DNA of 64,000 nucleotides from Adineta vaga (taxonomy: Eukaryota; Animalia; Rotifera). Of the stretch, positions 876 to 57,213 are shown one piece after another. The stretch is taken from positions 8,184,001 to 8,248,000 of the forward strand of contig CP075496.1 of the NCBI GenBank assembly GCA_021613535.1. The letters run 5' to 3'. The position numbers and the translations under genes were made by a program. Within the stretch, counting starts at the first letter, position 1, and each line of letters starts with the position of its first letter. The notes below the pieces were generated by a model. The model worked only from the letters and a program-made list of their open reading frames with translations, did not search any database and was not told the DNA's origin.

Positions 876-2590
<1,715 letters not shown>

Positions 2591-24419: not shown

Positions 24420-24959
24420 TGTGTATTTTAGTTATTTCGTAATGAAATCTGAAAAAAAGAGAGTCGAGTTGTTTTAATGTATGAAAATCTCGATATGAAT
24501 GACAAGAAAAAGTGAAGAAAATTCGTTATTTCTACCTGCATATATTCAGTTACGATTAGTCAACTCACCGAATATCAAATCTCTTTTATTTGATTGATTC
24601 TTCAACGCCTACCTTTTTTAGACGAAACCAAACTACGAACGAAATCGAACAGGATTATATTTTGTCAAATAAATCGTATTATATATCGACTTACTCATCA
24701 ACTTTTGCTGTGAAATATGAGAGATCTTTATATAGACATAAAGCATACACAGATATTTTACTTGAAGATAGAAATACTCAACAAGTAATCTTATCTTTGC
24801 GTTACTTTTCAATAGAAAAGAAAATTGAAATGATTAACTCAAATATCGTACTTTTTTCTCAGATATTTTGATTATCAAAGTCCATGAGATCATATGATTA
24901 TTTCTCATACAATCTTATGCAATCTCATTAAAATTCACCCGCCTTTCAAAATATCAATA

Positions 24960-26357: not shown

Positions 26358-26484
26358 ATGAAATCGTTTTCTTCGATGATTTGTAGCTATCCCGTTATTT
26401 TCTTTTATTGATTGAAGCAAGAGAAAAAAAAAGAAACAAAAATATCATTAAAATGTACTGTAATATTGATTTTATTAGTGATGC

Positions 26485-32840: not shown

Positions 32841-35800
32841 ATGAGTGCTTCGGTAAGATAAAAAAATAACATATACACATTTTATCTAATACTTGAACAT
32901 GTCCAAATTGTCTGAGAATATTCTACATTATGATTGAGATTTTATATTATTTAAAGATTATCGATCAGGTTAAAGATGAGTATGATTAAGCTGTTAGAAA
33001 AAGTGAGAATATAAGACGATGACAATGATTAGAAAAAGTGTAAATGTTATGTACGTGTGCATTTATATGCATGCATCAAATGTACTATATGTGATACTTG
33101 TCTACTGTTCTTTACTTACTTCAACTCATATTCATGCCAATGAGAAAGAGCATATGTATTGATTAAGTATATTCTTTCGTTATTGTTGTTGCTGTCGTTG
33201 TCGTCGTCGTCGTCGTTCTTCTCTTCTTCTTCTTCTTCTTCTTCTCCTTCATCTAATGGATAGATTAATCTGTCTGGTATTGTATCGAGAAACATACATC
33301 AAGTGTCTTCTTTCTATCGCATTCTAAATATGTAATCGATCACTTTCTTTGTTTTAGGCGACTGCTACAACCACGGAACGTAAATCGTTCTTACCATTAC
33401 GAGTACGCTCGACTACAGTTGCAGGATCGAGTAATATGCCAGCATCATCTCGTTCGATCACACCTGTTCCTATATCCATGCCATTGGGTGTACAAAATGA
33501 TTCGTTAATTGATTTATGCTATTTTGATTTGTTTTTCATCGCTGTTTGTTTTTATTGATTTCTAGTAAAGTATCATTTGCCGTGGGAGATCGTGTATTAG
33601 TCAATGGACTCAAAATTGGAACTCTACGCTATGTTGGAACAGTTAAATTCGCTTCTGGATTATTCTATGGTATTGAATTGGATGAACCTGAAGGTAAACA
33701 TGATGGACAAGTGAACGATTTTCGGTATTTATATTCGCATGAAATATATTCTTTGCATTTTTATATGATACTTGTTTGTTTTTACAAAGATATTTTCAAT
33801 GTAAAACGAATCATGGAGTATTTGTACCGTATGATAAAGTTGTCTTAGCACCTCGAGAACGAACATTAGTATGTATTTATCGACAAGAAATCATTGAAAT
33901 TAAAAGAAAAATCATACATTTCAGTCAACATATCGAACGATTAGTCGTTTAAGGCCTCCAGCAATAACTCGTACTATGACAGTGTCATCAGCAATAACTA
34001 TTAAAACTGAACGACATACAATTAAACCACCTTCTCCACATATTCCATTACCTGATATTATACCAACTCCAACAACTCCTACGCAACCCATCGCCATAAA
34101 CAAGTCAATTAATGATCCAGTCCTCACCGATGATCTTGTTCGTTTCATTTATCCGAAAACAAATCTCATTTTTAATTCTAGGATACAATGACACCAACAG
34201 AAGAACCAAGTTTAATCTGCAATTCAATACTTCAAATTCAACCAACAACAATCGATGAACGTATGTTTCAATTTTTTTCTTAAAAAAAGTGCATTAAATT
34301 CTCATTGCTTTAGCTTCGGAAACGATTGAAGCTGATTTTACTGATAGTGTCTCGCTAATTCTTCATCAACTTCAACAAGATGAAAAACCTGATTTTCTTC
34401 ATTCACGTGGTTCATTAACCATCAGTGAAGGAAGTACGAATGATGATGGAGATGATGAGAATGACGATAATATTAGTGATGATTGTGATAATGAAAGTAT
34501 TCCTGGATCAAGTATTAGTGAAAGAATACAAATCATTCGTCGTTCATTATCAATACATGAATCAACAAAATCTGTACAAACAGATCTATCCTTCGATATC
34601 AATGATAATATGTTGATTATGAAAAATACTTCATTAGAATCGACATCACTTTCAAATTCAAATAAATCATTAACCGATTCATCAACATCGATTAATAAAT
34701 TAAAAATGAACTCTACATATAATAAATCAGTTAGTAGCAATAAACGATTAAGTATTCCAACTTCAATATCAACTATAAAGAAAGGTTCAGAAAATTCATT
34801 GACAGGAAAACAATCGATTAAATATTGTTTACTTTTCTTAAGATTCTGAACGAAAAGGATCTATTACAGTAATAAATACTGCGTCTTCAACGCGAAAATT
34901 ATCTTTAATACCATCAAAAAAAGGATCTCCAGCTATGACTAGACAAAATTCTATCAACTCAATTGTTTCATCAAGTTCACAATCGAGTAAATTCTCATCT
35001 TTTCACATATGCTTATAATCTATTTGATTAATTCAGAGCTCAATCATTCTCTTTCATCAACAACTTCAATCGATGATAATCACACTGAAGTTATACCAAA
35101 TTCACGAAGATCATCGAACACAAATTTAAAATCATCTTCCACTACAACTCGAAAAGTATCTCATCCAACTAATCTTCTTGATTCTGGTAGATAAATTTTC
35201 TTTCAAAACTTCATCTAAGTTCTTTTTTTGTGCAGATAAAAAAACGATTTCGTCTCAACATTTATCGTTGTAAATTTTAAACAATTTCCTCGATTTTAAA
35301 TGAATATATTTCATTTTAATTCTAGACAAAAATCAGTTATTCAATCATTTGAAGATCAATCAAGAAAACAATATCAATATTTACTCAAACAATTCGATAC
35401 ATTATGTATTATGAGTCAATATTATCATTCTCAAGTAAAAGATTTCGTTTCCAAGAAGATGATAGATTACAATCTTCTTTTCATAGAATGAGCAAATCAA
35501 ACAACATTATGAACTTCAACTGAAGAAAGGTAGAAATGAATCGATGAATTTATTTTCATGAAACTTTTTTCTTCGTTTAAATTCAGTTCAAACGGCAAGT
35601 AATCAACTGAAGGTACATCTTGAGATCTTTTGCATTGAACAGAAAGAAAAGTTAATTGTATCGAATAGATTTCGATCGATCAATTACAAACATCACATCA
35701 AAATGAGTTGAGTACATTAGAACAACAACATCGAAATCAACTTGATACGATCAAAGAACTTCATCAACAACAAATCATTGAATATCAACAAAATCTTGAT

Positions 35801-36745
35801 AAAGCATCAGTAAATATCAATGATTTCTTTTTATCGCAAAACATCTTCTCGATTCTTTGTTTGTGTACAGAATGAAAAGATAGAATTCGAAATTCGTTGT
35901 AAATCTTTGCAAGAACAAGTCGATAGATTTATGGATGAAATGGCAAATAGTGAACATGCAGATCCATTGTTACGGCGTGTTGAAATCTTAGAAAAAGATC
36001 GAACAAGTTTACAAACTGTATTAGAAATTCGAAAACAAGAATTAACACAACTACGAACGAAAATTAATGAACAAGTTTTTCAAGTAAACGATTTTCATAA
36101 GTTTAATTTAGAAACGAATTTGATTTTAGCGTGAAGATCAACTTGCCTTACAAAAACGAATTGATATGGTTGAAAATCGAAATCAAGATCTTGTTTGTTT
36201 ACTTCGAAATTGGCAATTAAATGAAAAGTAAGTTGACTAATCTGTGTACGAGAAAAAAGAAACAACAATTCAATAAATAAATCGATAATAGAATAGTGTA
36301 TCAGATGTTGGCACCAGCTGTCGAATAGAGATAACGTTTCTGTCATTATCATTATTAAAATATGATATGAATAGATAATATTATCCTTGAAAATAATATG
36401 TTTTTTTTTTCCTCTATAAAAATTGATATTTACGAAATAAGTATGATTAACTTGTATTGTTTCATATCTTCTAGAGCTATTGCTGTTGAACGTGATCAAC
36501 TTAAAGAACAAATAGCAATATTAGAACGTGATAATCGTCAATTAACATTTCAAAATGAAACGTTACTCTATCGTCTTCGTGATCGACCCATATCAACATC
36601 TCAACCTCAATCATTAAAATTGAATTTAACTGCACCTATTATTCCACCAAGTCGTGATCGAACACATAGTTTATCTACACTTATGATAACAAATATACAT
36701 AAGACTGATTGTCTTTCACGGTCATTATCATTAAATTTCCTTTGA
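32841..36745 (+). CDS. CAP-Gly domain protein with SxIP-like motifs and MTUS1/MTUS2/CCDC69-like C-terminal coiled coil
   Basis: CAP-Gly VGDRVLVNG..GTLRYVG...FASGLFYGIELDEPEGKHDG...YFQC..NHGVFV. Motifs KSFLP and KLSLIPSKK. C-terminal SLQTVLEIRKQELTQLR and NRQLTFQNETLLYRL. The first exon (MSAS, 32841-32852) is tentative. Confidence 0.85.
33183..33250. repeat. Compound trinucleotide microsatellite (GTT/GTC/CTT)n in an intron
   Basis: ttgttgttgctgtcgttgtcgtcgtcgtcgtcgttcttctcttcttcttcttcttctt. Confidence 0.8.
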
Positions 36746-37561
36746 AATCGGTGATTTCTTCAATTGACTCTTCGAGAATGTCTATTGACTAAGATTTCGC
36801 TTTTAAATTTGACAATATTCAATCTATATGCCTGCATCTACTTGTGTGATACGAATTCTTTACATCGACACTCTCTTTTCTTTTTTTTTGTATTATTTAT
36901 ATATTTGATTTTCTCTTTGTTTTAAATATAAATATTTATTTGCATTTGTCTTCCTATGTGGTTATAATTAGAAGAAGAAGAAAAAAAACAAATATATTTT
37001 TTCATGTTGATCTGATATGACGTAAGAAATAGTTATTATTCATTTGGTATGATATGCTAATTACGAATGTTATTCATAGTGAAAACAAGAAAAGATTGTA
37101 TAATATTTTTTTATTATAAACAATTCGTGTAACGAAAAAAGTTCTTTATCTAGATCGGTTATTTTTGTTTTTTTTCTTCTATTGACAAAGACCTTGGTTT
37201 ATGAACGGCAAAACTATCGTTCGTATGAAATTGAAAATTGAAAGCAAATGTTTTCATATGAAACATTTGTTCTTTTGTATTTATTAGAGATTTTATCTAA
37301 AAAATTGTCACACATATGTTTTAATTCATTTCTAAAGAATGAATATCAAGAAAAGCGATCAATTGAAAGCAAAATATCTGAAATACCATTCATCTGTTAT
37401 AAATTTAATCCAATAAACAAAACGAATGATATTTTCTTAATAAAATACAAAAGAAATAAAAGAAAACTCAGATGTTCGAATCGAACTGATTTTCGATATG
37501 AATATTCTTCTATTCGTTATAATAAAATAACATGTTAACAATTTAAAACGCATCTTCAGTA

Positions 37562-40500
37562 ATGATTTCTTTTTATCTTCTCTTGATTTTCATTTGTTCT
37601 CTAATCAAATCGATTTTGACAACAACCCAATCACCATTTGAATTCATCTTCGATTATCATGATAAACAAATCATTGATACAAATTTTACTATAACAACAA
37701 AGTTAATTCATAATCAATCTCAAACAATCGATTGTGACAATCATCGATATGGTTTATGTCTTGTTGAGATATCATTAAAAATTCAATCGAATACATTATC
37801 GACACAATGTTCGTGTCAATTACCAGCAAGATTACGTACAAGTTCAAAACAGGACTATACTTGTATTTTACCAACAACTGATGCTACTGAACAACCATCA
37901 TTGACAATGGTAGTTAATTCGCATGAATCAGAAAAACTGTTTCCAATTGCAACGGCGAATTTTCGATATGCATCAAGATATTCAGTTGAAAAACAAGTGG
38001 AAATTCCAATTGTCATTCGGGTAACTGTTCTCACAAGGAAAAAAAAACATATACAAATTTGTTTTTAGACCAAACAGGATATTAGTAATGAAAATATTCT
38101 GTTACGAACTATTCGAAGTTTGCGAAATCGAATTGATATAAATGATGCAATTGAAAGTGAGCTTGATGATCCTGAATGTACACTTTATAATTATGGTAAA
38201 TAAATGAAATCGAATGATTAGTTGATAAATACAGGTCCGCCGTAGTTTATTTTGTTTAATTTCAGATTATCGTTATACAAATCCATCAGGTTTAGCAAGA
38301 ATCGATCAAGTAAGACATGATGTTTTTTGACTTATACGAAAGTTTTAAGTCAATTTCGTTGCAGTTGGATAGTCCTGTTGCATCGGCTGATTTCGCAAAT
38401 GTAAGTTAAGTGATGAAATTTTTTCTTAACACCATCTCTCTTGTAACTACAAAAAAAAACACATTAAAAGTAATCATGATAAACATCAGAAGAAAGAGTT
38501 CATGTGATTTTCATTATTTTCTTCTTCTTTATAATCTATTGTTTATTGTGTTGTTTTGTTTTTAGGATGTTCTCACAAGTTTGGAAAACAGATTGATAAA
38601 TAAATTTTCATATTTCATATTTTGTTTTGTTTTTTATTGAAAGATGATAATTCAAATGAACGAAAAGGTGAAATCGTTCGTTTCGTCACAAAAAGCTGCA
38701 CTGTAATTCCACCACTCTATGGTAATCCAGATGTTGAATCGATTCGAGTAGCTAGTGCACCAGATATTATCATTGATCAACGTATTGATCGAAATATTGA
38801 TCCAGAAAGTGATGGTATCGATTTTCCTTATATGAAAAGATATATTTTTCTTATACGAATGAAAATCCATATTTATTTACAATTTATTGTTGTTCCCTCA
38901 TGCAATGTGAATTTCTTTTACGTCGTTGCTCATTATGATACAGGAGAAACGGAATTCTATCGATCGACAGTAGGACAAAGTCCAGTTGTTCAAAACTTTC
39001 GCGTGAGACCTACAAAATATTTTGAAGTACATCTGAATTCAACTGATAATGGTTTACCACCGAATGATGTGACATTGAATGTGGTATGTAGAATTTCATC
39101 AACTTTTTGAATGATTTTCTTTGTTCAATATTCAAGGCTTATTGTGTTACACCAAAAGAGGAATGTCCGACTGTAAGTAAATGTATTAATGTTTTGTTAG
39201 AAGGAGAGAACAGTTATTTTTTATGCATTAGGTTATCAATCCAATTTATCCATCGGATGATTACATTGGAACTGTCAACGTGGATGTCAGTTAATAACGT
39301 ATACTTTTGAATATAAATTTTTGTTATTATTATATAGATTAATGCCGATATAAATGGTAATTCATTGTCTCCGTCTGTTCCTGTAAGTAGCTATTTTTTT
39401 TATAGCGTGCTGTTTCGAATGTGAAGATTTTGCTTTTTAAATAGATATTAGACGAAACATTACCTGCGACGTCGTTCATACCATCTCAAAATCCTGTGGC
39501 TGGTGTTGATGTTAGCGTAAGTTTATAATTTATTCATTTTACAAATGAAATAGATAATGACCAAACTCATGTTTTTACGAACAGATTGACACCGAAAATA
39601 TTCCATCACCATTCTATGTAAGATATTCTTGTTTAATTATCTAAAAAAGATGAAAGTTATTTCTATTTTTCAGAGTATTAATGCTGATTTTATACCACAG
39701 CCGACAACGTATGAATCAAGTTATGCGTCTCCTATTGTAAGACTTAATCATTGAAATTATATCTTGCAGCTTTGATTTCATTTAGAATGTTCCACGTCAA
39801 GAATTAGCGGATATCTATCATTCACCTGTTTCGATCATCGGCACCGTCGATATTAACATTGTGAACAACGATCAATCAAATATTCCAGTAAAAAAGTCTT
39901 TCTTCTTCTTATTTGTTTTATGTTTCTAAATATGCTATAGATCCTTAATCAGATGCCGATTGCTTCACAAGTTGTACCTCAACCAACGATATATGTCGCT
40001 GATCCTATCAATAGATCTCCCTTTGTAAGAATTATTTGAAAACAGGATTTACATCTTATTATTTCGTTAGATTGCTAGCCGAGAAGAAATAGTAAATGTG
40101 CCAACCAAATCTTCTGATATTGTTGGTACCGTAGATGTTAGCGTAAGCTTCTCATCTCTAGTTTATCGTCTGATACTTCAACTATGCAATATGATTATTA
40201 TCTCTATTTTATAGATATCTGCCGATACTCCTGATCTATCGTTTTCAAATGATGCTCTTATTGTATGTTCTCTACGGAAAATGATAAGTTCATAATAATT
40301 TAATAGAGTAACAAAATCACATTTCTAGATCATTCTATCACTCATTTAAAAACCGATACAGTTTTTACACTTCATCTGCTAGAATACGGATTATATCTTA
40401 CATCTCTTTTTAGTCACCAATATCTACTTATGATCCTTTACCACCGATGCGAACAACACAAGTACCTGCAAACTATGCATGCTACAACAATCTACAAATT

Positions 40501-43500
40501 GTTGGACATATCAATGTACAGAACATCTTCGACATTAATTCACCTCAAACAACAACCACAACATTATCAGACATCCTCAACTCTCAATCATCATCACCAG
40601 TAAGTTCATCAACAACTCAATACTGACCTTCTTTTATTATTAGGGTTATTCATATCCATCGTTTCACTATCCATACCATACTATTGTCATCAATCTTCGA
40701 GTCAACATCTATGTTCAAGCACTCACTCTTGGATCACAATCGAACGTTCAACGATTTGGTCTTCGACTGTACAATCCTGATCGGAATGTTGATGACACAT
40801 ACTATTCATCGACCGTGCCAGAATATGGAAATCAGCCAGCTATTGTTCGTATTCCACTGGCAAAGGTAGCTATTCGTTTGTACTTGAATTTATACACGAC
40901 GAATGATGGACGACCACCAAGTGACATGAAGATTGTGATTGTGAGTAGATGTTATTGGATGAGATATATGTTATTATGTTGATTGAATAGAATGCATGTT
41001 TTGATACCACATCCTCGTTAGATAGTGGTGGTAGTGAGAGAATAGGTGGTCAATATTATCGAAGTCCAGATGTCGTCCAAATACCATCTCCAGTTAGTAG
41101 TTTAGCTAGATTCCATATTTTAATGATATTATAAGAACATTTTGAACAGATTTTCAACTATAATTCTGATACAATATCGCAACCATATGTTCCATCAAAT
41201 GATATTCTTGGTACTGTGGATGTAGATGTCTCGGTAAGATTAATATATGAATATATTCTATCAGTTATACAGTTGTATACTTCAAAAGATCGATAATCTA
41301 CCATCCTTATCAGTACCTGCACAAAATAATCCAATTGAAACGCTTTATTCGAGAGTTCGAATACCATATGTAAGTGAAGTGCGTATCATACGGAACAAAA
41401 CATTTGTTGCGTTTTATAGGATACGAATACTGGTCGTGTAGCACTTGATTATGGAGCTCCTTCATCAATGAATTTAAACTCAAATTCGCCTGACTATATA
41501 ATGGTTTGTTAGTTGTTTTTATACTATTTAATGTAATGAAATTGTTGTTCAGAATGATAATTATGATCAGTCACCATCAGTCGTTGGAACAATTAATGTG
41601 GATGTAAGATATATTCAAATTGATAGTTAACTTTATGTTCTTAACTAAACTATATTTATTTCTATTCATAGATTGACATAGAAACTCCAAGTTCGCCCGT
41701 CTCCGGCAGCTACTATTCAGTCTGTATATAAAGTCTAGTATTCTCAATAAGCTTTCGCGTACATTGTAGACGATTATTGAACAACCTAGAACACCTACAA
41801 TTCTCAATTATGCCAGTCCAATATTAGTGGTAAGGTTTTCTATTACAATGCTCCTGATACATTTCAGAACCGAATCCTTTTCTTTTTGAGCAAATTAGTG
41901 CTCAATATTTTACTTGTATTTATACTCTCTCTGTCTGACGGATCAAAAGCATGATACAAAGAAAAAGTAATGAACAACATGTTTCGTCTTTATGCTTTAG
42001 TCACCAATAGCTACTTATGATCCATTACCACCGATGCGAACAACACAAGTACCTGCAAACTATGCATGCTACAATAACCTACAAATTGTTGGACATATCA
42101 ATGTACAGAACATCTTCGACATTAATTCACCTCAAACAACAACCACAACATTATCGGACATCCTCAACTCTCAATCATCATCACCAGTAAGTTCATCAAC
42201 AACTCAATACTGACCTTCTTTTACTATTAGGGCTATTCATATCCATCGTTTCACTATCCATACCATACTATTGTCATCAATCTTCGAGTAAACATCTATG
42301 TTCAAGCACTCACTCTTGGATCACAATCGAACGTTCAACGATTTGGTCTTCGACTGTACAATCCTGATCGAAATGTTGATGACACATACTATTCATCGAT
42401 GGTACCAGAATATGGAAATCAGCCAGCTATTGTTCGTATTCCACTGGCAAAGGTAGCTATTCGTTTGTACTTGAATTTATACACGACGAATGATGGACGA
42501 CCACCAAGTGACATGAAGATTGTGATTGTGAGTAGATGTTATTGGACGAGATATATGTTATTATGTTGATTGAATAGAATGCATGTTTTGATACAACATC
42601 CTCGTTAGATAGTGCTGGTGGCGAGAGAATAGGTGGTCAATACTATCGAAGTCCAGATGTTGTACAGGTACCATTTATTTCACCAATACAGCAGCAACAG
42701 CAACGAGAAGCCTCAGTAATTTTTAACTGCTAAGATTCATTGATTTTTTCAAAACGAAGTATTATTTTGATTAGATTGTTAGTTACAATTCTGATGTTAT
42801 GACGTTACCCAACACTGCATCAAACAATATTGTTGGTACTGTCGATGTATCAGTAGGTTTTATGTTTAGCTCTTTTATTACGTTTTCATTTCCATACTTG
42901 AAGATCGATACTGTATCATCTATATCCGCAGCATTGCAGAATAGTCAAATTGAAACGATTTATTCTGGTATTCGAACACCATATGTGAGCAATAGGTTTT
43001 GCTATTGACCATTGTATTCGAAATGTAATTGTTTTTCATACTTTAAAGGAGTCAAATAGTAATTTGGTTACACAATTTGCACCAAATTTTGTACCAATAG
43101 CTTCAACGAACATCAACAATGACAGAAGGATACTAGGACAGAATCTTGTTGGAACAGTGGACGTGGATGTAAGTTAGATGGATATGAGAATTGGTTCCTT
43201 TGAAGATTACTATGAACTGATGAATCCTTGAATGTTTAAGGTTGAAATCAATGGTCAGCCTGTACCAATAGTTGATAATGGTCAACCGGTATGTTTATTC
43301 AACTTGTTCTACAAATCTTCCATACTTATTTTTATAGATATTTTCTGCCGCAAGTCGTACTCCTTCTGTATCATATTATTATAGTCCAATATTACAAGTA
43401 GGCATCGAGTTTAAAGATATTTCTATTGACAGAAAGACGAAATTGTCCCAGAAATTGTATACGATGTTTTCAATAATTTAGTTTTCCGGATTTTCAGAAC

Positions 43501-46500
43501 TTCTGATAGTTTGTTTCCCTTATGAAGTTGAAGAAAACTCTGACTTCATTTTTGATTTTTCTCGTCATCACTATTCAAAAGCTATCATATCCATTCCAGA
43601 TAACTCATATTTCTATTTAGTCACCAGTATCTACTTATGATCCTTTACCACCGATGCGAACAGCACAAGTACCTGCAAACTATGCATGCTACAACAATCT
43701 ACAAATTGTGGGACATAGCAATGTACAGAACATCTTTGACATTAATTCACCTCAAACAACAACCACAACATTATCAGACATCCTCAACTCTCAATCATCA
43801 TCACCAGTAAGTTCATCAACAACTCAATACTGACCTTCTTTTATTATTAGGGCTATTCATATCCATCGTTTCACTATCCATACCATACTATTGTCATCAA
43901 TCTTCGAGTCAACATCTATGTTCAAGCAATCACTCTTGGATCACAATCGAACGTTCAACGATTTGGTCTTCGACTGTACAATCCTGATCGAAATGTTGAT
44001 GACACATACTATTCATCGATGGTACCAGAATATGGAAATCAGCCAGCTATTGTTCGTATTCCACTGGCAAAGGTAGCTATTCGTTTGTACTTGAATTTAT
44101 ACACGACGAATGATGGACGACCACCAAGTGACATGAAGATTGTGATTGTGAGTAGATGTTATTGGATGAGATATATGTTATTATGTTGATTGAATAGAAT
44201 GCATGTTTTGATACCACATCCTCGTTAGATAGTGGTGGTAGTGAGAGAATAGGTGGTCAATACTATCGAAGTCCAGATGTTGTACAGGTACCATTTGTTT
44301 CACCAATACAACTACAACCATCATATGTAAGTGGTACTAAGCTTGTGATCAACACTTTTTCGCTTAATAGGGCGTCAACTATATCTGTATTGCTTGTGTT
44401 TCATCATATTCTCTATTTTAGATGACTGATCTTGGCGAACTAGTTGATAATCAAGCGCCAACATCAGCGTTGAGTGGAACAATCGATGTCATTGTAAGTT
44501 ACATCTTATTAAAGAATGAAATAACATTTTATGCTGGGATTGATTTTAGGTGGTGAGCTATCTGAAGAACTGTTTGAATAGATACAACATTTCTCGTACA
44601 ATAACATTTGTAACTATTCTGATTTTAGGATAATACCATTGGTCAACCATCAGGATCTTTCGGAGGAGTAAGTTATACAAGAAACGAATTTTGAATTATT
44701 ACGAAAATTATAAAATCAATAAAGGATAATTTTGTAGACTTTATTTTTATGATTTTCATATCTATTTAATCTAGTACATAATTCTGTAATATTCTAGTTA
44801 CTATCACCAAATAAACCAATATCATTTTCTCGTAAACCGGGTCAATGTTTTGAACAAATTCTTGTTGTTGGTGGTCCACATATAACCATGATTCGATCAC
44901 GTAATCCTGCTCATCAAATGGTTGGATCAGAAATTAACTATGGTGGTACAGGATATACATTTACATCTCCAAGTGATTCTTATGAATTCGAAATTCATTT
45001 CGTTCAACCATTTACAATGAAATATGTATTTATTCCGTATTCTGCAAATGTAGAAAGTTTTAAAGTCGAAGCATCGCATGCTGGAATGTTAGCTGTATTC
45101 ACTTCGAAAACTACGAATGATGGTGTAGTTGTAGATGGATTTCCTCCTATGTTAATTTCCATGTTAGTAGTTATCATTACTCATACTACGGATGGTTACT
45201 TACCAAGCCACATAACACTTAGTATTGTATGTAAAATTAGGTTAACTGTCTTGTGATACGACTCTTCATGATTGTTTTAGGGTGTTTGTAATCCCATATA
45301 TTCACCATCGAATGTAAGTATAGACGAACAAAGTGATAATGAATTACCCTTTTAGTTGAGAATGAAATTTTACGTGATACGGGTGTAAAAGATAGCTTGC
45401 AGACAGTTACTTTAATTTAACAAATTTTCACAATTTTCTATATGGTTTAATAAACATCGAAGCATCTGTATGTAAATACCGATCAATAGTACTAGTCAAA
45501 GATCTATGAATTTAGTTGGAAAAGATTCCGATATCTCTGCTCTATCTCGTTTTGATGATTGTTTTTTAGGAAGGTAACGAAATTCCTGAAATTACAGATT
45601 GTACTTCACAATTGCGTTTATTTGATAATCCTGAACAAGTTACTCGAGTAGACATCAAAACTCCTGTCGGACATTTGAAAGCTAATAATCTAATAAATCC
45701 TAATCAAAATGGAATGGAATTTTTTACAATAGGCACACATACCATCGATATTGTATTGGCATTAACTCTTGCAATTAATTCCGTAGAATTTCATCCGTTA
45801 AGTAACATTGATAGTTTTATATTACAACTTCATCAATCACATCAATATTATCTGGAAATAATGTCTAATATTGGTTCAAAAAGTATCAATCAACTCGATA
45901 ATGTTCAAGCGAATTTAATACGTATTATTATACTTGGAACATACGATGGTAATCCACCTAATCAAGTATCAATTAAAATAGTAAAAAGATATATTGAATC
46001 AATTAAATATTAGAAATAGTATAATTCCCTTTTGTGAATATTTTAGGCTGCTTGTATACCCATACGCTTACCAAGAATTATGGCAAGTCCATTTAAATAC
46101 GTGAGACAAATATGATTTATATAAGAATACGTAATCGTAATATTCTTTTCCTTTTCAAGGAAATGATAACGAAACGAAGAAAATCACCAAGAATAGATGT
46201 AAGAACGTATCCTTCTGCTATAGGCTCAGCCCATGAGTCAACATATCTTTCGTATTCTAGAATAATCGTGGTGTGATCTTGACATACCAGGTAAAAATAT
46301 TTGAATATATGAATTTGTTCCATGTATTGTTTTCCTTAGGATCAACCGGAACAATCACAAACGTCTATGGAGCTAACAGCAAATATTAATGTATATAACA
46401 AAAATATTGAACAAATACATTAGATTCGAACTCAATGTATTTCTTTTTCTTTAGTTACAAGCAATTCAACAGTCTTCTATAGATACATTTGCGTCACCAG

Positions 46501-49500
46501 TTCTGGTAAGAATTATTGTGAATCTTTCTCTTGTTAAAGAGAAACTCATACCTTTCACAGCAACCCTTATGGTCTACTGACTATATACCATCCATTCGTA
46601 TTCAAGCACCAACAAATGTTCTGGTAACTAGTATACCATAAGTCTTTGTATTGCTTTTTACAACATCTGAAAAACTTCCTCATTTAGCTAGAGCCAATTC
46701 AAAATCCTGTAGTGCGCAGTCAATCATCGCCCATTGTCGTGAGTCTTAGCCTCAGAACATTTGTAATCCTACTACAGTATTCTTTCTCACTGGTCACAGA
46801 TGCTAGCACCGACATATACACCAGCATTTGTCAATCAACCATCACAATCACAACAACTACTTCAACAAACATTGTTCAGTCCGATTCTGTCTCAATCGCA
46901 GGGAAATGTACGGCAACATAGGTTTTACTCTATATATTCTATAAACATATATAACTTCGGCTAAAAACAATTTTTTACTGATTAACTCATGGCCAAATCG
47001 AAATTATACTTTAGGTACCAATACAACGAATTGTTCAAACTTTACAGCCAACTTATCTCACAAGATCACCTTCTGGATTCACTTGTTCACACAACTATCA
47101 AGTCACTACCAATCTACATATCAACAACATCTACACTCTATCACCTTCTTCATCTCCTACATCCTTCTCATCTATCTACGATTCAACTTCATCCAATTCG
47201 CTCTCTACTAACAACGTTAGTTCTCCTTTTCGTATATCATCGTCATCTATGTTTTTGTCTATTCTAGGGCTATTCATTCGATTCACATCATTATCCATTT
47301 CATACTATTGTTGTTACTCTCAAGTTTACAGCCTATGTTCAATCACTCTCACTCGGATCACAATCAAATGTTCAACGGTATGGTCTTCGATTGTATAATC
47401 CTCGTTCTGATGTCGATGACACATACTATTCATCCGTTGATCCCACTACTGGTCAACCAATCATCTCCAATATTCATATGGCAAAAGTGGCTATTCGTTT
47501 GTATATCAACTTGTACACAACATCAGATGGTCAGCCACCAAATAACATTCAGCTCAATCTTGTATGTACACTTTTCTACATGATGATGATGATTTGAAAT
47601 TGTTTGTATTATGCTGATGTATAGAATATTTGTTTTGATCTTCGATCAAGTGAAAGTAGTGATGATGTTGGTAGATCGATGATGATTGGTACACCGATAG
47701 TGGCAAGTCCAGTGGTGGTGGTAGTACCAGATCGTAGATTAGTCGTGGAACAACCACAACTATCGATAGTTCCAACTGTACTGATAATACCAAGTCAAAT
47801 CATTGTAAGTTACATAAATCAATGTATAGGATCTGTCGTAGTCATAGTTATGAATTGGTAATTGAGACGTCTAAAAGACTTATTTTGAAGAAATATTTTT
47901 CGCAAATAATATAAATCTCGTGTTTACTTTGAATAGTTCACGTTTGTTTGTTGTTGTTTAGGAGCAATCTATGCCAGACAGTATTTTTACCGTGAGTGCA
48001 ACCAAATATTGATGTTTTTCTAGGATTGGTGTCGACTGATTTTTCATCTGTATTTATAGAGGACCATTCCAATCGTTCAACCAAGTTTTATGCAGCCTGT
48101 TCGAACCCCTGATACATATGTTGTCGTCGATACGATTCCAAGTTCAGTAAGTAAAATAAATTTTTCTTCTCAAACTCAAACAAATTCATATTCAAAATGT
48201 GTTTTTTTCGTTTGGAATAGATTTTACCAATGCCACAAACAATTGTACAACCAAATCCATTACTGATTATAAGCGTATGTAAAATTATTAACATCACATT
48301 GAATACGTTTATACTATAGGAACCGATTCAACAACTACCAATGCGATCAACGGCGATATTGTCAGAAAGACTTGTTCCAATACAAAAATCTGTAAGATCG
48401 ATCACATTGATTGACGAAGTTTTTGCTTCACACTTCATTTATTACGTAAACCACTCAGATAGGACCTGAAAAAGCCGTTTTTGAGATCATGTATCGTAAG
48501 GCAACTAGAGTTGTTTTTGTCCATAGTTAATCACCTAATAGTATCTTCAGTGTATTATCTGTTCAATTGAATAATACTGCAGTTCTGCATACAATTTCTC
48601 CGCATGGTGTTGCGTCTACTACAACTGTTTTATATATTCTATAGATTCAATCCAACACACAATTTATTGAACTTACGTATCCGTCTCAAATCATAGTAAG
48701 CACAGTTGATTAAGAGATGCAACAATTCAAAAAAAGAATTCTTGACTTTTAGCCAAGTCCCATATACGAAGAACCGATTATTATCGAACAACGATTGCTG
48801 CCAAAGGTATCTTCCTCAATAACTCTTATCATTTACTAATTACTTTTTCGAAAGTTTTCGTTGGTTTTATTTCCCTTGTTCATAGCATAGGGCTTCACTA
48901 TGAATATTCATCTCTGACGTCAAGACATAATCTCATCTAAATGTTACCTATAAATCTCTAGGTGCCGATACAACGAATTGTTCAAACTTTACAGCCAACT
49001 TATCTCACAAGATCACCTTCTGGATTCACTTGTTCGCACAACTATCAAGTCACTACCAATCTACATATCAACAACATCTACACTCTATCACCTTCTTCAT
49101 CTCCTACATCCTTCTCATCTATCTACGATTCAACTTCATCCAATTCGCTCTTTACTAACAACGTTAGTTCTCCTTTTCGTATATCATCGTCATCTATGTT
49201 TTTGCCTATTCTAGGGCTATTCATTCGATTCACATCATTATCCATTTCATACTATTGTTGTTACTCTCAAGTTTACAGCCTATGTTCAATCACTCTCACT
49301 TGGATCACAATCAAATGTTCAACGGTATGGTCTTCGATTGTATAATCCTCGTTCTGATGTCGATGACACATACTATTCATCCGTTGATCCCACTACTGGT
49401 CAACCAATCATCTCCAATATTCATATGGCAAAAGTGGCTATTCGTTTGTATATCAACTTGTACACAACATCAGATGGTCAGCCACCAAATAACATTCAGC

Positions 49501-52500
49501 TCAATCTTGTATGTACACTTTTCTACATGATGATGATGATTTGAAATTGTTTGTATTATGCTGATGTATAGAATATTTGTTTTGATCTTCGATCAAGTGA
49601 AAGTAGTGATGATGTTGGTAGATCGATGATGATTGGTACACCGATAGTGGCAAGTCCAGTGGTGGTGGTAGTACCAGATCGTAGATTAGTCGTGGAACAA
49701 CCACAACTATCGATAGTTCCAACTGTACTGATGATACCAAGTCAAATCATCGTAAGTGATTTGTTCTCTTCATATCTAGTTAATAATTAACGACCTGCTA
49801 ACGGATGAACACGGAGCTACATTTTTTTAATATATGTCATATTTTCTAGGAACCACCTGTAGTATATCGTATGATTGATCCTGTTCCATCTGAATTTGTT
49901 GCAGTACGTAAAATGATTTTGTCCGAGTATATGTGTTGATTGTTCTGTATATAGCAACCAATTATTCAAGAACCACTAAGAGTATCGTCGAGACCATCGG
50001 TAATCACATCAATTGAAGTTGAAGCTGAAATATCACCAGTACGCATCTTCTAGAGATTCATAGCTATAGTTTTTTCAAGGAAAATACCTTTTTTAAACTC
50101 GAAAAGGGCCACAGTATTTGAAATGAAAAATGTCTATCAGAGTTCAATGTGAGAGAAGAAAAGATCACTCAATGAGTTATAGATTGTTTGGAATGAAACT
50201 AGCTTAATATATGATTCTCTACGTAGATTGAATCTGTGCCAGAAGTTGTTATTCATAGTATTCCATCATCAATTATTCAACAACCAGTACGTTGGGTGTG
50301 GCAAGGGTTAATTCTAGAGAATTTATTGTTTTTGATAGATAGTAATGGAAATACGAACACCTGTATTTGCGCAATCTGTACCAGTCGAACGTGTGCGACC
50401 TATGGTATCGTCAACTGTAGTAAGAACTATTTTTAGTGAAGTAAGTAATGTTTCATCAATTGAAACCTCCTTAAAAACAAAGTAAATAGTTCAATAATAT
50501 GGCAATTCATTTGCTCGCATTATGGTGATACTTAATCACTAGTTTTCTAATATTTAGATACGAGAAGCTCCAAAAGACACGATTTTTACTATTTCATCAC
50601 CAATTATAAATGTAATTATTCTAGTTTATACAATAGGCAGTATATATATATGTATTTGTCTATCTTCTAGCAGAGAGTAGAAGAACAACCTCGCTGGGTC
50701 ATCAGACAGCAATCGACCCCGATTATTCAGCAAGAACGAATAGTAACACTACAGAGAGATCCATTGTATGTTTCTCGTTTAGTTCAATCTGATCCTTCAC
50801 CTAATGTAAGTAAAATAACGATGCGCAGATGTATAATATATTTTGAGAATTACTTGCCATCAATAAATAAATTTAAAATGTTCTACAGAGCAAACAACAA
50901 TTAGAAAGTTTTATTAAACAATCATCATACGTGTAAATTTCATTCATTATTTGTTTTCTAGGTGGAAATAACAGTAGAGATTAACGAACAGACATATCCA
51001 TCACTCGCCATTGTAAGTAATTAGTTCATAATTTCATTAGTCTGAACCAGTTCTCTATTTTCTTTAGCCGAGTCCTAACTATATCCAACCAGCTAAACAA
51101 ACAATCGTATATGAGCAACGCTTACCCACTGAAATCTTGCCACTGGTACCCATCGAAGTAAGGAAATTTCTTTCTAATAGTATGTTCATAATAACGGTTC
51201 GACTATATCGAATAATCAATCGTTCATCCATCCATTCAGCTTTTAGATCATGATCTGTTTGTCAGTTATCAAGAACGAGTAGATCATCTCATAAAATTGA
51301 CGTTATTGTTAATTATTCTGATGCTATGAATTCTCAGAAAGCATTTTCCATTCGATTGTTTACTCGACAATCTTACATCTATCTCTGACATCGTCTGAAT
51401 TAATCGGTTTCATTGTCCTTGCACATTTCAATATTTCAACAGTCATTCTCTAAGAAGCTATACAAAAATATCTTTTCAGACACCTGTACGTCAAATACTT
51501 CAAGTACCGCAAAGAGTACAATCCATCGCATCACAGCCAACTTATCTCACAAGATCACCTTCTGGATTCACTTGTTCGCACAACTATCAAGTCACTACCA
51601 ATCTACATATCAACAACATCTACACTCTATCACCTTCTTCATCTCCTACATCCTTCTCATCTATCTACGATTCAACTTCATCCAATTCGCTCTTTACTAA
51701 CAACGTTAGTTCTCCTTTTCGTATATCATCGTCATCTATGTTTTTGTCTATTCTAGGGCTATTCATTCGATTCACATCATTATCCATTTCATACTATTGT
51801 TGTTACTCTCAAGTTTACAGCCTATGTCCAATCGCTCTCACTCGGATCACAATCAAATGTTCAACGGTATGGTCTTCGATTGTATAATCCTCGTTCTGAT
51901 GTCGATGACACATACTATTCATCCGTTGATCCCACTACTGGTCAACCAATCATCTCCAATATTCATATGGCAAAAGTGGCTATTCGTTTGTATATCAACT
52001 TGTACACAACATCAGATGGTCAGCCACCAAATAACATTCAGCTCAATCTTGTATGTACACTTTTCTACATGATGATGATGATTTGAAATTGTTTGTATTA
52101 TGCTGATGTATAGAATATTTGTTTTGATCTTCGATCAAGTGAAAGTAGTGATGATGTTGGTAGATCGATGATGATTGGTACACCGATAGTGGCAAGTCCA
52201 GTGGTGGTGGTAGTACCAGATCGTAGATTAGTCGTGGAACAACCACAACTATCGATAGTTCCAACTGTACTGATGATACCAAGTCAAATTATTGTAAGTG
52301 ATTTGTTCTTTCGTGATCTTGTGAATAATCAACGACCTGATAACTGATGAACACGGAGCAAAAAGTTTTTATTACATGTCACCTTTTCTAGGAACCACCT
52401 GCAGTATATCGTGTGATTGATCCTGTTCCATCTGAATTTGTTGCAGTACGTAAAATGATTTTGTCCGAGTATATGTGTTGATTGTTCTGTATATAGCAAC

Positions 52501-54218
52501 CAATTATTGAACAACCACTAAGAGTATTGTCGAGACCATCGATAATCACATCAATTGAAGTTGAAGCTGAGCTCACACCAGTAAGTTGTTTTTTGAAAGG
52601 TAACGAACGAGTGAATGTATGTATGAAGAATAAATTGATTGCATTTCAAAATACCAAAAGGAAAATATACAGTTCAGTAGTATGCTGATTTGAGGAATAT
52701 ATCACGGTGTAGAATATACAAAAGAAATAGTTGAATTATTGATTCTTTCTATGAATAAATTTGGTCAAGAGAATAATTTTATTGATTGCATATATAGATT
52801 GAATCTGTGCCAGAAGCTGTTGTTCATACTATTCCATCATCAATTATTCAACAACCAGTACGTTGGGTGTGGCAAGGGTTAATTCTAGAGAATTTATTGT
52901 TTTTGATAGATAGTAATGGAAATACGAACACCTGTATTAACGCAATCTATACCAGTTGAACGTTTGCTACCAGTGTTGATCAAAGAGCAACAATCTGTGG
53001 CACCGCTAGCTGTTATTAGAACCATCTACAGTGAAGTAAATAGAACCAAGATCTATATTTTTATAGCTTATTTTCTTATATAGAATTTACCTTTGCCACA
53101 AAATACAGTGTATACAATACCATCACCAATAATTGAAGCACCGGTAATTATTTAACTACCATATATCATGGAAGATTGCTAGGTCTGATTTATGTATACT
53201 TTAAAGAGCAACATTGAAATAACAGCAAGTATTTCACTTATGGAAAGACCTAATGAATATCAGCAACAGCGAATAATTGCTCCGTCACCTATTGAACGTA
53301 TTGTGATACCTTCAATTGTATCACCTGCTATAAGAACTGTGTATAGTCCGGTAAGTGCTTTCTCTCTATTGAATCAATTGTTATAGGCTACTGAATACTA
53401 TTTAATTGGAAAGTCGAAAATCGAAACTTATATCATTTGTAGGTTAGAACGATGCCATTAACGATCATGGACACGGTCCCGTCACCAATCATTAATGTAT
53501 GTAATTGAAATAATATTTTAGTAGTAGTTGATTTCCATAAAATAATACACAGGAATTAATTTAATTCAAATGAGGTGATCATAGTTCATATTGTGAGTCT
53601 CATTGAAGTTTATCCATATTTTTCGTTCTACTAATATAAAATTCAAGTTTGAAAAGAGATGGCTGATTAAACTTCGAATATTTCTAGGCACAAATTGAAG
53701 TTCAGCTTATAGAAAATACATATCCATCTCAAATTATTGTATGTAATTCGAAAAGTAGATAAGTAAAGACAATATAACCATTGTTTTGTATGTGTAGTCA
53801 AATCCTGTTTATACTCAACAGTCTATTATAGAAAGACGTTTACCGAATGAAATACTTCGTTATGTACCTGTTGAGGTAAGTTTTCTTATATGGATTTCAT
53901 ATTGTGTTTCTCATGAAAATACTCGAATCAACATATTCTTGTCTTTTTTTTTCATATTATAGAGTAAAATACCATTTATCCATATGGTATCTTCGCCAGT
54001 TATGGTGAGTTTTATTCGAATCAATTTTCGGTTCGATCTATTATTTGAATTTTGAATAGGTATCACCACCTGCAGTAGGAACTGATTATGTGATGCGTGT
54101 ACCCATTCAAACTCCACTCATACGTACTGAAACATGTAGTTGTCAATGTTCCAGAAGCGGATCAATATCGATAGTTTATGATAATGTTGAACAAAGTTGT
54201 TCAATTCCGATGATATAA
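37562..54218 (+). CDS. Giant secreted modular protein (~80 exons): 9 Cys-bounded beta-sandwich (discoidin/galactose-binding-like) domains joined by P/V/I/S-rich phase-0 micro-exons; C-terminal CSCQC
   Basis: Signal MISFYLLLIFICSLIKS. Domains end T-x-D-G-x-P-P-xx-(V/I/M)-x-(L/I)-x-(I/V/L)|xxC at ~38644-39172, A1-A3, ~44798-45313, ~45570-46100 and B1-B3. Chain of GT-AG introns. Last exon 54060-54218 ETCSCQCS...IVYDN. Confidence 0.8.
40414..41092 (+). repeat. Intragenic 3-exon cassette A, copy 1
   Basis: Near-identical, including both introns, to the copies at 42001 and 43621. Confidence 0.95.
42001..42715 (+). repeat. Intragenic 3-exon cassette A, copy 2
   Basis: Offset 1587 nt from copy 1. 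Confidence 0.95.
43621..44326 (+). repeat. Intragenic 3-exon cassette A, copy 3
   Basis: Offset 1620 nt from copy 2. Confidence 0.95.
47015..47804 (+). repeat. Intragenic 3-exon cassette B, copy 1
   Basis: Near-identical to the copies at 48962 and ~51534; shadow ORFs 47391/49338/51880 are identical. Confidence 0.95.
48962..50440 (+). repeat. Intragenic cassette B, copy 2, plus four downstream micro-exons shared with copy 3
   Basis: Offset 1947 nt from B1. Exons EPPVVYR.., QPIIQEP.., IESVPEV.. and IVMEIRTP.. recur at 52392-53035. Confidence 0.93.
51480..53035 (+). repeat. Intragenic cassette B, copy 3, plus downstream micro-exons
   Basis: Offset 2542 nt from B2. The 5' end of its first exon is unique (TPVRQILQVPQ), then near-identical from cagccaacttatc. 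Confidence 0.93.
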
Positions 54219-55276
54219 GAAAAAGGCGAGATCATCATCTTACGGATAAAGACGATGATAATTATTTCAATACAATCATCTGAATGTGATGATTTCCATG
54301 TTTTATATCACTCTGCTTCTGACTGAATGTATTTGTTATTTTTGTTTCGATATTCAAAATATATTAAGAAAAAAGGATGACATCTACAAGAGCAGCGATG
54401 TATTACTAGCACAATATGTAAAAATTAAAATTGAAGTTTGCTCTAAATCAAAGTTTAAAATAGAATCAATTTATTTACTTAGAAATGATATACATACCTA
54501 TTGAACAAAGAAGGAAAATTCAAATGAACTTTTGATTACTATAGAATTTGCTCACCAATAGTGAGTTAGACTGAATCATTTTTGTATGATAGATAATGTT
54601 GTACGAATGAAATGTAAATGAATGAGAATATAGAATAGTTCTAATTTAATTGCCTGAAAAGATAAAACATTTATATTTATATTTCAAGCAAATCCTATCC
54701 ACTAAAAGATATGTCAATCATATGTTTAAATTTTTTGAAGTTCATATTCAACTCATGTTACTACGAACTCTGAAAACAAAAGAAAAATAAATTCTTGAGG
54801 TATTGCAAACTATCGTGGTAAAATACATATTTCTATACCATATTATTACTCAATTAGGTTCATATATGCGTAGAAAATTCGATATTTTTTATTGATGATT
54901 GTATTATTCAGCTGATTCTTGAGAATATTCTCAAGGACAACGATACATTTCGAAAGAATTAGAGTGTGCATTTTCTTGATATTCAGTCTAAAACGTATCT
55001 ATTCCATTTAACTACCAGAGAAATACAGCTGGTGAATAGATCGATTATGTTTCGCCAAATAATGTTTTGGTTTTAGTTTCAGGACATTCTGCAGATAGTT
55101 TAACAAAGCATGTTACCAAATAAAAAACACATCTGCTGTATTTGTTAGTCCATTTTACAGATATAATCATAAATTCAACAAAACATGTGCTTCTGATTGA
55201 ATGCATATCACTACCGTTCTTATTACAAAACCTTTTTTTATTAACCAACAATACATACTTCTCGCAAATAGTCGCG

Positions 55277-56234
55277 ATGTACTCTACTTGGATCACATGG
55301 TCTCTCATCATCTTCTCTTTTAGCATTCTCATTATGAAAATTCATGCTACAACATCAAGTGAACACATCATCTTCTGCTTTCTTTCATTTTCATTTTCAT
55401 TCCATATTTTACATTTCACATAGATCTCAATCCACAAAACACATCTCATCCACACTCTCTTCATTTCATTCCATCCATACCTCCTCACAATGGTACGAAA
55501 CAACACCATCATTCACAATTCTATATCTCTCTCACTCTCACTTATCTACTTTTTAGACACTAGCCATGATAACGAAGGCAAAGATCATGATACAGAACCA
55601 TTGAAAAACAATGGTCGTGGATCACATGAAGCATCTTCTCAAAGTATTCATTTTTTCTTTTCCTATCCGATAGTGATATTCTTGTCTAGATTATGCTGCT
55701 GAAAACAATGCAACACATGGTATACCAATTGATCAGTTTCAACAGATGATTCTCGATGAACATAACAAATATCGTCGACAATCATGTGCTGATAATCTTC
55801 AAGAAGACGATGAACTACATGCAGAAGCAATGAAACGAGCACATAGCTTGGCTAACGGACATGTTCTCCCATTACCTGATGAATACAATGAAAATGATTT
55901 TGAAATTGATACAGGTGATCCATCGAAGATCACAAGTAAGAATGCTTGTAGTTGTGTGATATTTGTAATGACTAAGAAATGTGTATTTGTAGGTGAAATG
56001 ATTGTGAAAGATTGGTTTGATCAATCAAAACATTACAATGTTGAAAAAGAAGAATCGGCATTGAAATATTGTCAACTGGTATGGAAGAGTTCTAAGAAGA
56101 TGGGTGTTGGTCATGCATATGATAGTCATAAGTTGTATGTGATAGTATTGTACAAACCATCTGGAAATCTTCGTGGTGAATTCGAAAGAAATGTCGGTTG
56201 TGGTTCTCAAAATCAGCAGAAGAAAAACAAATAG
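55277..56234 (+). CDS. Secreted CAP/SCP/PR-1 superfamily protein (GAPR-1-like), copy 1
   Basis: Signal MYSTWITWSLIIFSFSILIMKIHA, His-rich linker, ILDEHNKYR, WFDQSKHY, YCQLVWKSSKKMGVG, LYVIVLYKPSGN; 4 introns. Confidence 0.92.
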
Positions 56235-57213
56235 CTAGAGAACTTTTAGTTTTTTTCATCAAACAAAAAATATTTTTTTTTGTTTTAATATCTGATTAAT
56301 TCGATGAATAAAATCTTAAATATTCAGAGATTATTTCTAACTTGCTTCCAAGTTAATTCCAATTAATAACATTTACCTTGGAATAATATTCGGTATAGAG
56401 ACTGGTTTGATAGTTGGCGTGAAATTAATTCCATTTCAAGTCTCGTACCTCGAGAAGTTTGTTTAAATCACAAAGAACGAAACAAGTGACGTCAAACATT
56501 ATTAAGCAGTTACTATACACTACAGAATTGTTTGAGTAGTAATTTAGTCATAGTTTCACAGAATAGATTTTAGTGGAAAATAAGAAAAGAATCGTAGATA
56601 TAAATTTACAGGAAAAAAAAGGAACTAAAAGCAATACTGTTTTGTTAACAATCGAAGATTTCAAGAGTACCTGTTTATTGACAACCAACTATTCGTTACT
56701 TTGTTGAAAAGAATGAATTCATTTACGTATATTTTAGAACACTTTTCAACAGTGAAAATATGAATTGCATGTACATTGAAATTGCCTGAGAACCATTTCG
56801 ATACGAATCTCCTCCTCAATGTGTTCTTTCAATTCTTTCTATTTAAATTTCTTACGTTACTTCGCTCACCATTAGAGGCAAGTTTCAAGCGCAGAAGCCA
56901 AAAAAATCATAGACAGACATCTCTACGAAAGAAATCTCCATGCATACATAATAACAACAAATAATTCATCAAAATTATTATATGTATTACTGGAAAATAG
57001 CACTTTTTTTGCTTACTCTGATAGTAAACAGGCATGTACACATGTGATTTTTAATATGTTTTCATAAAAAGTCTTTCGTACAGTCGTGCATATAAACTGA
57101 TTGAAGTCAATCAATCGAAGATCTAAATAAATTATAAAATCATATGTATAAATAGATATATATATCAACATTTGTAAGAAACCTTTTCATTATTTCTGTT
57201 TAGAGAACCATAA

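What the first reader, a model, noticed from the sequence alone, without database searches (positions are those of the whole stretch)
37562..54218. Giant secreted gene built from dozens of symmetric phase-0 micro-exons: a candidate combinatorial-splicing system
Seen: about 80 exons by hand count. Every linker exon I checked is phase 0 at both ends and a multiple of 3, e.g. 39137-39172 (36 nt), 39232-39285 (54), 39338-39382 (45), 39445-39516 (72), 39585-39617 (33) and 45281-45313 (33). The domain cassettes are also phase-0 bounded. Known: arrays of short symmetric exons let schistosome micro-exon genes (MEGs) generate variant secreted proteins by exon skipping. Inference: any subset of these exons could be skipped in frame, giving a length- and valency-tunable lectin-like or structural polymer in a probably asexual animal. 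I do not recognise this as a described family.
Basis: partly seen in the sequence, partly recalled or inferred. Interest (0 to 1): 0.78.

Follow-up and report, generated by a model that had tools for sequence, protein, structure and literature searches.

The report
Rotifer 83-exon all-phase-0 discoidin-chain gene
A bdelloid rotifer gene of about 83 predicted exons, nearly all joined between codons, would encode a large secreted chain of nine discoidin-like domains; the uniform exon phase most likely records growth by exon duplication, and mix-and-match splicing remains untested.

Summary
Phase-free gene models give 83-89 exons at 37562-54218; after curation 80 of 82 introns are phase 0 (neighbouring genes 24 of 110). 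The gene is single, bdelloid, and has a syntenic orthologue (L008) with 58 of 59 introns in phase 0. 'Micro-exon' is overstated: the median internal exon is 72 nt, exons of 36 nt or less hold 2% of the coding sequence, and introns are ordinary (median 60 nt). The predicted 3,236-aa secreted protein carries nine discoidin/F5-8C-fold domains on Ile/Pro/Ser/Val-rich linkers. Each domain's closing cysteine lies in a separate exon, so not every subset can be skipped without breaking a fold. The best reading is growth by duplication of class 0-0 exons plus likely gene conversion: L008 has its own 21-exon phase-0 array, and cassettes are 98-100% alike within a species, introns included, but 75-89% between species. 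MEG-like combinatorial skipping is untested and less likely, given short introns and splice sites that are not weak. Precedents are sponge aggregation factors and SmPoMuc. I found no description of the family in ten literature searches.

The parts
37562..54218 (+). Whole predicted gene: 83 exons (84 with the 3-nt exon), 9,711 coding nt, 3,236 aa
   Evidence: homologue P0008 spans first to last exon in one annotated protein
37562..38020 (+). Exon 1: predicted signal peptide and a cysteine-bearing beta-sandwich N-terminal domain
   Evidence: hydropathy peak at residues 1-19; model pLDDT 60; best fold Z 7.2, not distinctive
38069..38578 (+). Exons 2-5: two overlapping RxxR candidate convertase sites (residues 166-172) and an acidic stretch; holds both phase-1 introns
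38644..39172 (+). Discoidin-like domain A (exons 6-7)
   Evidence: profile match; cysteines 245/376
39232..40262 (+). Linker 1: exons 8-16, all 0-0, recurring GTVDV-type motif
40414..41092 (+). Domain cassette B1 (exons 17-19)
42001..42715 (+). Domain cassette B2 (exons 26-28)
43621..44326 (+). Domain cassette B3 (exons 34-36)
44550..44552 (+). Probable 3-nt micro-exon (left out of the 83-exon count)
   Evidence: picked by the phase-free model; same AG-3nt-GTGAG arrangement at the same place in L005, absent in L003
44798..45313 (+). Discoidin-like domain C (exons 39-40)
   Evidence: model pLDDT 86.5; Z 10.5-11.5 to DOC, discoidin I and CBM32
45570..46100 (+). Discoidin-like domain D (exons 41-42)
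46160..46907 (+). Linker exons 43-49; replaced in L008 by an unrelated, much longer tandem exon array
47015..47804 (+). Domain cassette E1 (exons 50-52)
48962..49751 (+). Domain cassette E2 (exons 59-61)
51480..52293 (+). Domain cassette E3 (exons 70-72)
52392..54004 (+). Last linker, exons 73-82; exons 73-76 are a recent copy of exons 62-65
54060..54218 (+). Last exon: CxCxC...C motif. Relatives continue into RKRR and an acidic tail; the window stops just before, where run X1 lacks 2 nt

Best explanation
This is one bdelloid gene predicted to encode a secreted chain of nine discoidin-fold domains on Ile/Pro/Ser/Val-rich spacers, and its uniform phase 0 is most likely the footprint of growth by in-frame exon duplication, with likely gene conversion keeping the domain cassettes alike. 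Shown in sequence: the phase bias, the nine repeats with one cysteine pair each, cassettes near-identical within a species including their introns, and an independent phase-0 exon array in the orthologue. Inferred: only 0-0 units can be duplicated, lost or swapped without a frameshift in a gene whose boundaries are already phase 0, so every surviving change keeps the phase. Length and valency therefore vary at the DNA level between lineages, and most exons are probably spliced constitutively across short introns. Function is inferred and weaker (about even odds): a convertase-trimmed, possibly disulfide-linked, multivalent glycan- or surface-binding scaffold of an extracellular layer such as mucus, glue or egg coat.
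For: Orthologue L008 (syntenic) has 58 of 59 introns in phase 0 after merging one false split. Its D-E linker holds 21 exons of 114-255 nt whose best matches within the array are 66-94% identical, with a 390-nt tandem period, and no counterpart in the window. Ten short bdelloid loci gave 51 of 51 phase-0 introns downstream of the domain exon; three more gave 6 of 6, 5 of 5 and 16 of 18. Cassette numbers vary: B 3 here, 4 in L008, 1-3 in annotated models; E 3 here, 1-2 in others (partial models). B copies are 98-100% identical within each of five lineages and 75-89% between them. Internal introns match 43-44 of 44, 49-50 of 50, 51-52 of 52 and 63 of 63 nt, while most flanking introns match only about 30-70%. 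The linkers between B copies are no closer to each other (score 211) than one is to another species' linker (235), which suggests old duplication and later homogenisation. Introns are as short as the neighbours' (60 vs 59 nt); donor sites are not weaker than the neighbours', and linker exons are not significantly weaker than domain exons (p=0.31). Exon skipping across eukaryotes goes with longer flanking introns and weak sites (PMC6142364). Precedent: 154 of 155 sponge aggregation-factor introns share one phase, read as shuffling (PMC5400394). A neighbouring modular gene has 26 of 29 introns in phase 1.
Against: Only 47 of 76 exons (7-82) fall into detectable homology groups; 29 are singletons, giving 41 groups in all, so duplication is shown for part of the gene and assumed for the rest. 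[quoted passage not shown] Linker order differs between the window and P0001, and L010 lacks one cassette relative to L008; both may be assembly errors at near-identical repeats. Neighbour splice-site scores include mispredicted introns, which lowers them. Of 18 exonic differences among the 40 listed (of 236) in run X1, 13 are non-synonymous, which fits weak constraint or diversification. No ligand, localisation or processing was tested.
Confidence: 0.66

Rival explanations
1. MEG- or titin-PEVK-like combinatorial splicing: the 53 pure-linker exons, and whole three-exon cassettes, are skipped in many combinations, giving length- and valency-variant secreted polymers, and phase 0 is kept by selection for this.
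For: 77 of 81 internal exons are 0-0; the 53 non-domain exons have a median of 60 nt; phase stays 0 even among 41 sequence-unrelated groups (0.5^41 = 5e-13); probable 3-nt exon. SmPoMuc combines homogenised exon repeats with alternative splicing (PMC2576457), so the two mechanisms can coexist.
Against: Median intron 60 nt; 45 of 76 exons have both flanking introns of 100 nt or less; splice sites are not weak. Domain exons cannot be dropped singly without losing a cysteine partner. Exons missing from relatives' annotated proteins come from genome-based predictions and are not isoform evidence. Duplication alone predicts the same phase pattern.
Confidence: 0.15
2. Phase 0 arose mostly by intron gain or intronisation at codon boundaries in a low-complexity coding region, not by exon duplication; symmetry is a by-product with no role.
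For: 29 singleton exons; in L008 a domain intron appears to begin about ten codons earlier than in the window, inside protein-like sequence; the phase-0 introns inside the B and E domains are not module boundaries.
Against: Only 3 of 82 exon ends are AG, so no proto-splice-site signature; whole exon-plus-intron units are demonstrably copied; I know no gain mechanism that would give 80 of 82.
Confidence: 0.12
3. The locus is several genes, or the repeated cassettes are assembly artefacts.
For: No piece listed for run X1 spans the whole stretch; cassettes are 97-100% identical.
Against: One open frame over 83 exons with a single N-terminal signal; P0008 runs from first to last exon; X1 covers 30 of 30 bins, and unique linkers between copies are present as contigs; relatives also carry multiple copies.
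Confidence: 0.05

Closest known systems
Sponge aggregation factors (AqAFs; MAFp3/MAFp4), PMC5400394
   Same: Large extracellular modular proteins with nearly all introns in one phase (154 of 155 phase 1; MAFp3/4 all phase 0), multi-exon domain cassettes, short introns in one species; splicing proposed there as a possibility.
   Different: Calx-beta, VWA and Wreath domains instead of discoidin-like ones; allorecognition role; no homology found.
Schistosoma SmPoMuc polymorphic mucins, PMC2576457
   Same: Exon-plus-intron repeats homogenised by concerted evolution; secreted; copy number varies.
   Different: A 27-bp exon in 1-kb tandem repeats, introns about 550 bp, multigene family, alternative splicing shown. 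Here the homogenised units are folded-domain cassettes separated by divergent linkers.
Schistosome micro-exon genes (MEGs), 10.1101/2023.06.21.545858
   Same: Signal peptide; many exons with lengths divisible by three.
   Different: MEGs have 10-20 exons of 6-81 nt (mostly 15), introns of 0.1-5 kb and proven isoforms. This gene has 83 exons, median 72 nt, introns of 60 nt and nine folded domains.
Class 0-0 secreted disordered proteins (enamel and SIBLING genes), PMC3632108
   Same: Built by adding and tandemly duplicating 0-0 exons that encode proline-rich or disordered segments.
   Different: Small vertebrate biomineral proteins without folded repeats.
F5/8 type C / discoidin / CBM32 domains
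   Same: Predicted beta-sandwich fold, Z 10.5-11.5; one cysteine pair at the domain ends.
   Different: 6-18% identity; no Pfam match; equally close to non-lectin DOC domains, so sugar binding is not shown.

Membership tests
Schistosome MEG | Coding sequence mostly in very short exons (6-81 nt, majority 15 nt) | tested here: not met
   25% of coding nt in exons of 81 nt or less, 2% in exons of 36 nt or less; definition
Schistosome MEG | Long introns, 0.1-5 kb | tested here: not met
   median 60 nt, range 44-322
Schistosome MEG | Exon lengths divisible by three | tested here: met
   77 of 81 internal exons 0-0
Schistosome MEG | N-terminal signal peptide | tested here: met
   by hydropathy only, residues 1-19; no dedicated predictor was available
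Schistosome MEG | Many isoforms by skipping of central exons | not testable with these tools
   needs reads of this transcript
Schistosome MEG | Restricted to Schistosomatidae | tested here: not met
   named homologues are Adineta, Rotaria and Didymodactylos
F5/8 type C / discoidin domain | Galactose-binding-like beta-sandwich fold | tested here: met
   domain C model pLDDT 86.5; Z 10.8, rmsd 3.0 over 125 residues to discoidin I; Z 11.5 to HERC2 DOC; the other eight domains linked by profile
F5/8 type C / discoidin domain | Match to the Pfam model PF00754 | tested here: not met
   no such hit at E<=1 for 6 of 6 exons scanned; the B and E exons scanned are partial domains
F-type or CBM32 lectin | Sugar-binding residues and activity | not tested
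   no binding-site analysis done
Sponge aggregation factor | Nearly all introns in one phase | tested here: met
   80 of 82
Sponge aggregation factor | Calx-beta, VWA/VWD or Wreath domains | tested here: not met
   none in the 6 large exons scanned; the nine repeats are discoidin-like
SmPoMuc-type polymorphic mucin | Exon-plus-intron repeats under concerted evolution | tested here: met
SmPoMuc-type polymorphic mucin | Tandem 27-bp repeat exon in 1-kb units | tested here: not met
   no such array

The most novel reading that the evidence does not exclude
A free-living, largely clonal animal diversifies one secreted multivalent lectin-like polymer at two levels: combinatorial skipping among about 53 phase-0 linker exons despite 60-nt introns, and gene conversion plus unequal exchange of whole domain cassettes. 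This would be the first MEG-scale exon-skipping system in a short-intron genome.
Probability: 0.12. Interest if true: 0.8.

Novelty: new member of a known kind. Interest (0 to 1): 0.42.

Why it matters
As read here, it is an apparently undescribed protein family, conserved across bdelloid genera, and a candidate for the extracellular layer of an animal known for surviving desiccation. It is also a clear case of module growth under a phase constraint. Cassettes homogenised together with their introns, between divergent linkers, offer a natural marker for measuring intragenic gene conversion in a lineage with little or no meiosis. If skipping proved extensive, it would contradict the link between exon skipping and long introns.

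Tried and rejected
RNA: no RNA holder listed for 37500-47400. Five of the nine RNA-guessed runs were laid (X7; X5, X9, X10, X11); no joint was listed within the gene (one joint row was not shown), while X5, X9 and X10 gave spliced contigs on the upstream neighbour. This is no evidence on expression or isoforms. X1, X3 and X4 behave as DNA (no joints). None of 40 proteins from assembly sources (39 with no annotated name, plus P0018) spans the three domain C-D exon junctions tested, so no transcript-derived protein was found. No whole genome is held, so the genome-wide phase test was replaced by 10 predicted neighbouring genes, several themselves modular. Pfam gave nothing at E<0.02 for 6 exons; the PDB sequence search gave one hit at E=1. 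The N-terminal domain stayed unassigned. Remote hits P0041, P0043 and P0044 were judged chance. Exons dropped from the free model: 41891-41932 (X1 has a 2-nt insertion inside it), 44371-44373, 45396-45467 (homologues join across), 51342-51392, and 44550-44552 (later supported). The span 48392-48644 may hide an exon and is unresolved. L011 was not modelled (script error). Literature searches with no description of this gene or family: (0 papers); the library lacks most subscription papers, and no supplements were read. Earlier scan findings: nothing returned.
Full report
Observation. I built a gene model that scores splice sites only on their intron side and may choose any phase. It gave 89 exons from the ATG at 37562 to the stop at 54218, with 84 of 88 introns in phase 0. 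Trained only on neighbouring genes, whose predicted phases are 24/69/17, it still gave 82-84 phase-0 introns of 86-94 and shared 67-73 of 82 introns with the curated model. Curation against homologues merged one false split, dropped five exons and moved four boundaries: 83 exons, 3,236 aa, 80 of 82 introns phase 0, 77 of 81 internal exons symmetric. The excess is far beyond chance (p 2e-29 against all neighbours, 5e-10 against three housekeeping-type genes, 5e-13 even if 41 homology groups are counted once). On the upstream neighbour the method matched 6 of 9 RNA junctions exactly and tended to add false small exons. Indels listed for DNA run X1 fall in introns in 11 of 12 cases.

The median internal exon is 72 nt. 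Exons of 36 nt or less hold 211 of 9,711 coding nt, and only one curated exon is under 28 nt. Introns have a median of 60 nt, like the neighbours' 59 nt. Schistosome MEGs have 10-20 exons of mostly 15 nt and introns of 0.1-5 kb (10.1101/2023.06.21.545858, passages), so membership fails. One true micro-exon is probable: 3 nt at 44550-44552, with the same splice sites at the same place in L005 but not in L003.

Organism and family. Named homologues are bdelloid rotifers (Adineta, Rotaria; 57-90% identity on the domain exon), with a distant Didymodactylos hit. A search of 1.84 billion representatives returned 13 proteins; the only named non-bdelloid hit looks like chance. One annotated homologue, P0008, spans first to last exon, and L008 shares the two upstream neighbours, so this is one orthologous gene.

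Protein. Residues 1-19 are the most hydrophobic stretch; the next-highest lies inside folded domain C, and I see no membrane anchor. An unassigned beta-sandwich follows, then RxxR sites at 166-172. A profile finds nine related domains. Domain C folds confidently (pLDDT 86.5) as a galactose-binding-like sandwich: Z 11.5 to HERC2 DOC, 10.8 to discoidin I, 10.6 to CBM32. Foldseek and the language-model search agree; Pfam does not detect it. A shared fold does not show sugar binding. Each domain has one cysteine near its start and one as residue 3 of a separate downstream exon (9 of 9); that these pair follows from my recall of F5/8C domains. Linker exons are rich in Ile, Pro, Ser and Val (13, 12, 11, 10%). 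The last exon has a CxCxC...C motif that relatives follow with a basic site and, where complete, an acidic tail. The window stops just short of this, at a place where X1 lacks 2 nt, so the window carries a truncated allele or an assembly error.

Why phase 0. In a gene whose boundaries are phase 0, only 0-0 units can be copied or lost in frame. This process is visible. Exons 73-76 copy 62-65 with two introns 100% identical. L008 has replaced the D-E linker with its own array, 21 exons of which are 66-94% identical to their closest neighbour in the array, all phase 0. Thirteen shorter loci gave 78 of 80 predicted introns in phase 0, and the domain C or D exon ends at the same phase-0 GT in 34 of 40 assembly proteins (6 without a match). 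Domain cassettes group by species (98-100% within, 75-89% between), their internal introns are near-identical while most flanking introns are not, and the linkers between B copies are as close to other species' linkers as to each other. I infer old duplication with continuing gene conversion; recent lineage-specific duplication with fast linker change is not excluded. The limit is that 29 of 76 exons have no detectable relative in the gene.

Splicing. Isoforms could not be tested. Indirect signs lean against mass skipping: short flanking introns, donors not weaker than the neighbours', and no significant difference between linker and domain exons, whereas skipping goes with long flanking introns and weak sites (PMC6142364, passages; exceptions exist). 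In favour are short exons, symmetry and the 3-nt exon. At most 53 exons could be dropped without breaking a domain.

Comparison. Uniform phase in large extracellular modular genes is known: sponge aggregation factors, 154 of 155 phase 1, with MAFp3/4 all phase 0 (PMC5400394, passages), and class 0-0 enamel and SIBLING genes (PMC3632108, abstract and section 19). Homogenised exon-intron repeats occur in SmPoMuc (PMC2576457, passages). This window holds a second single-phase gene, 26 of 29 phase 1. A survey of rotifer secreted lectins, which relied on Pfam models, reports no matching bdelloid protein in the passages I saw (PMC8878817). Other papers were seen only as search listings.

Verdict. 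The feature is real and the family appears undescribed, but the architecture is of a known kind. Best explanation: duplication footprint with gene conversion (0.66). Combinatorial splicing: 0.15. Interest 0.42.

Noticed in passing
window 20008-28081 (-): Predicted secreted or membrane protein with about 20 cysteine-rich, EGF-like (my recall) modules, mostly one per exon; 26 of 29 predicted introns phase 1.
   Followed up: partly
window 4953-10126 (+): Predicted Thr/Gln/Ser-rich protein ending in a CxCxCP motif and RRRR, like the C-terminus of this family; 9 of 13 introns phase 1; the domain profile did not match it.
   Followed up: partly
window 54213-54284: Run X1 lacks 2 nt here; the frame then continues into RKRR and an acidic tail as in relatives, so the window's stop may be an allele or an assembly error.
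   Followed up: partly
L008 9841-10903 versus L010: Two assemblies 99.8% identical differ by one 1,063-nt domain cassette: copy-number polymorphism or assembly collapse.
   Followed up: partly
L008 9949-10000: The intron inside the B domain appears to start about ten codons earlier than in the window, and the lost codons still look protein-like; possible intronisation.
   Followed up: no
protein P0040 (unnamed, 2,106 aa): Many near-identical copies of a distantly related domain on Ser/Thr-rich, mucin-like linkers; possibly a second family of this kind.
   Followed up: no
window 55334-57837 and 58558-59457 (+): Two near-identical tandem genes with a CAP/SCP-like domain (name recalled).
   Followed up: no
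window 28864-31233 (+): Intronless 789-aa secreted-type ORF, 63% identical and syntenic in L008; origin not examined.
   Followed up: no
window 32841-36745 (+): CAP-Gly gene, spliced in RNA runs X5, X9 and X10; a public annotation (P0032) fuses its orthologue to part of the giant gene, probably in error.
   Followed up: partly
window 876-2590 (-) and 3118-4332 (-): Adenosylhomocysteinase-like and aquaporin-like genes (names recalled), used as phase controls.
   Followed up: no
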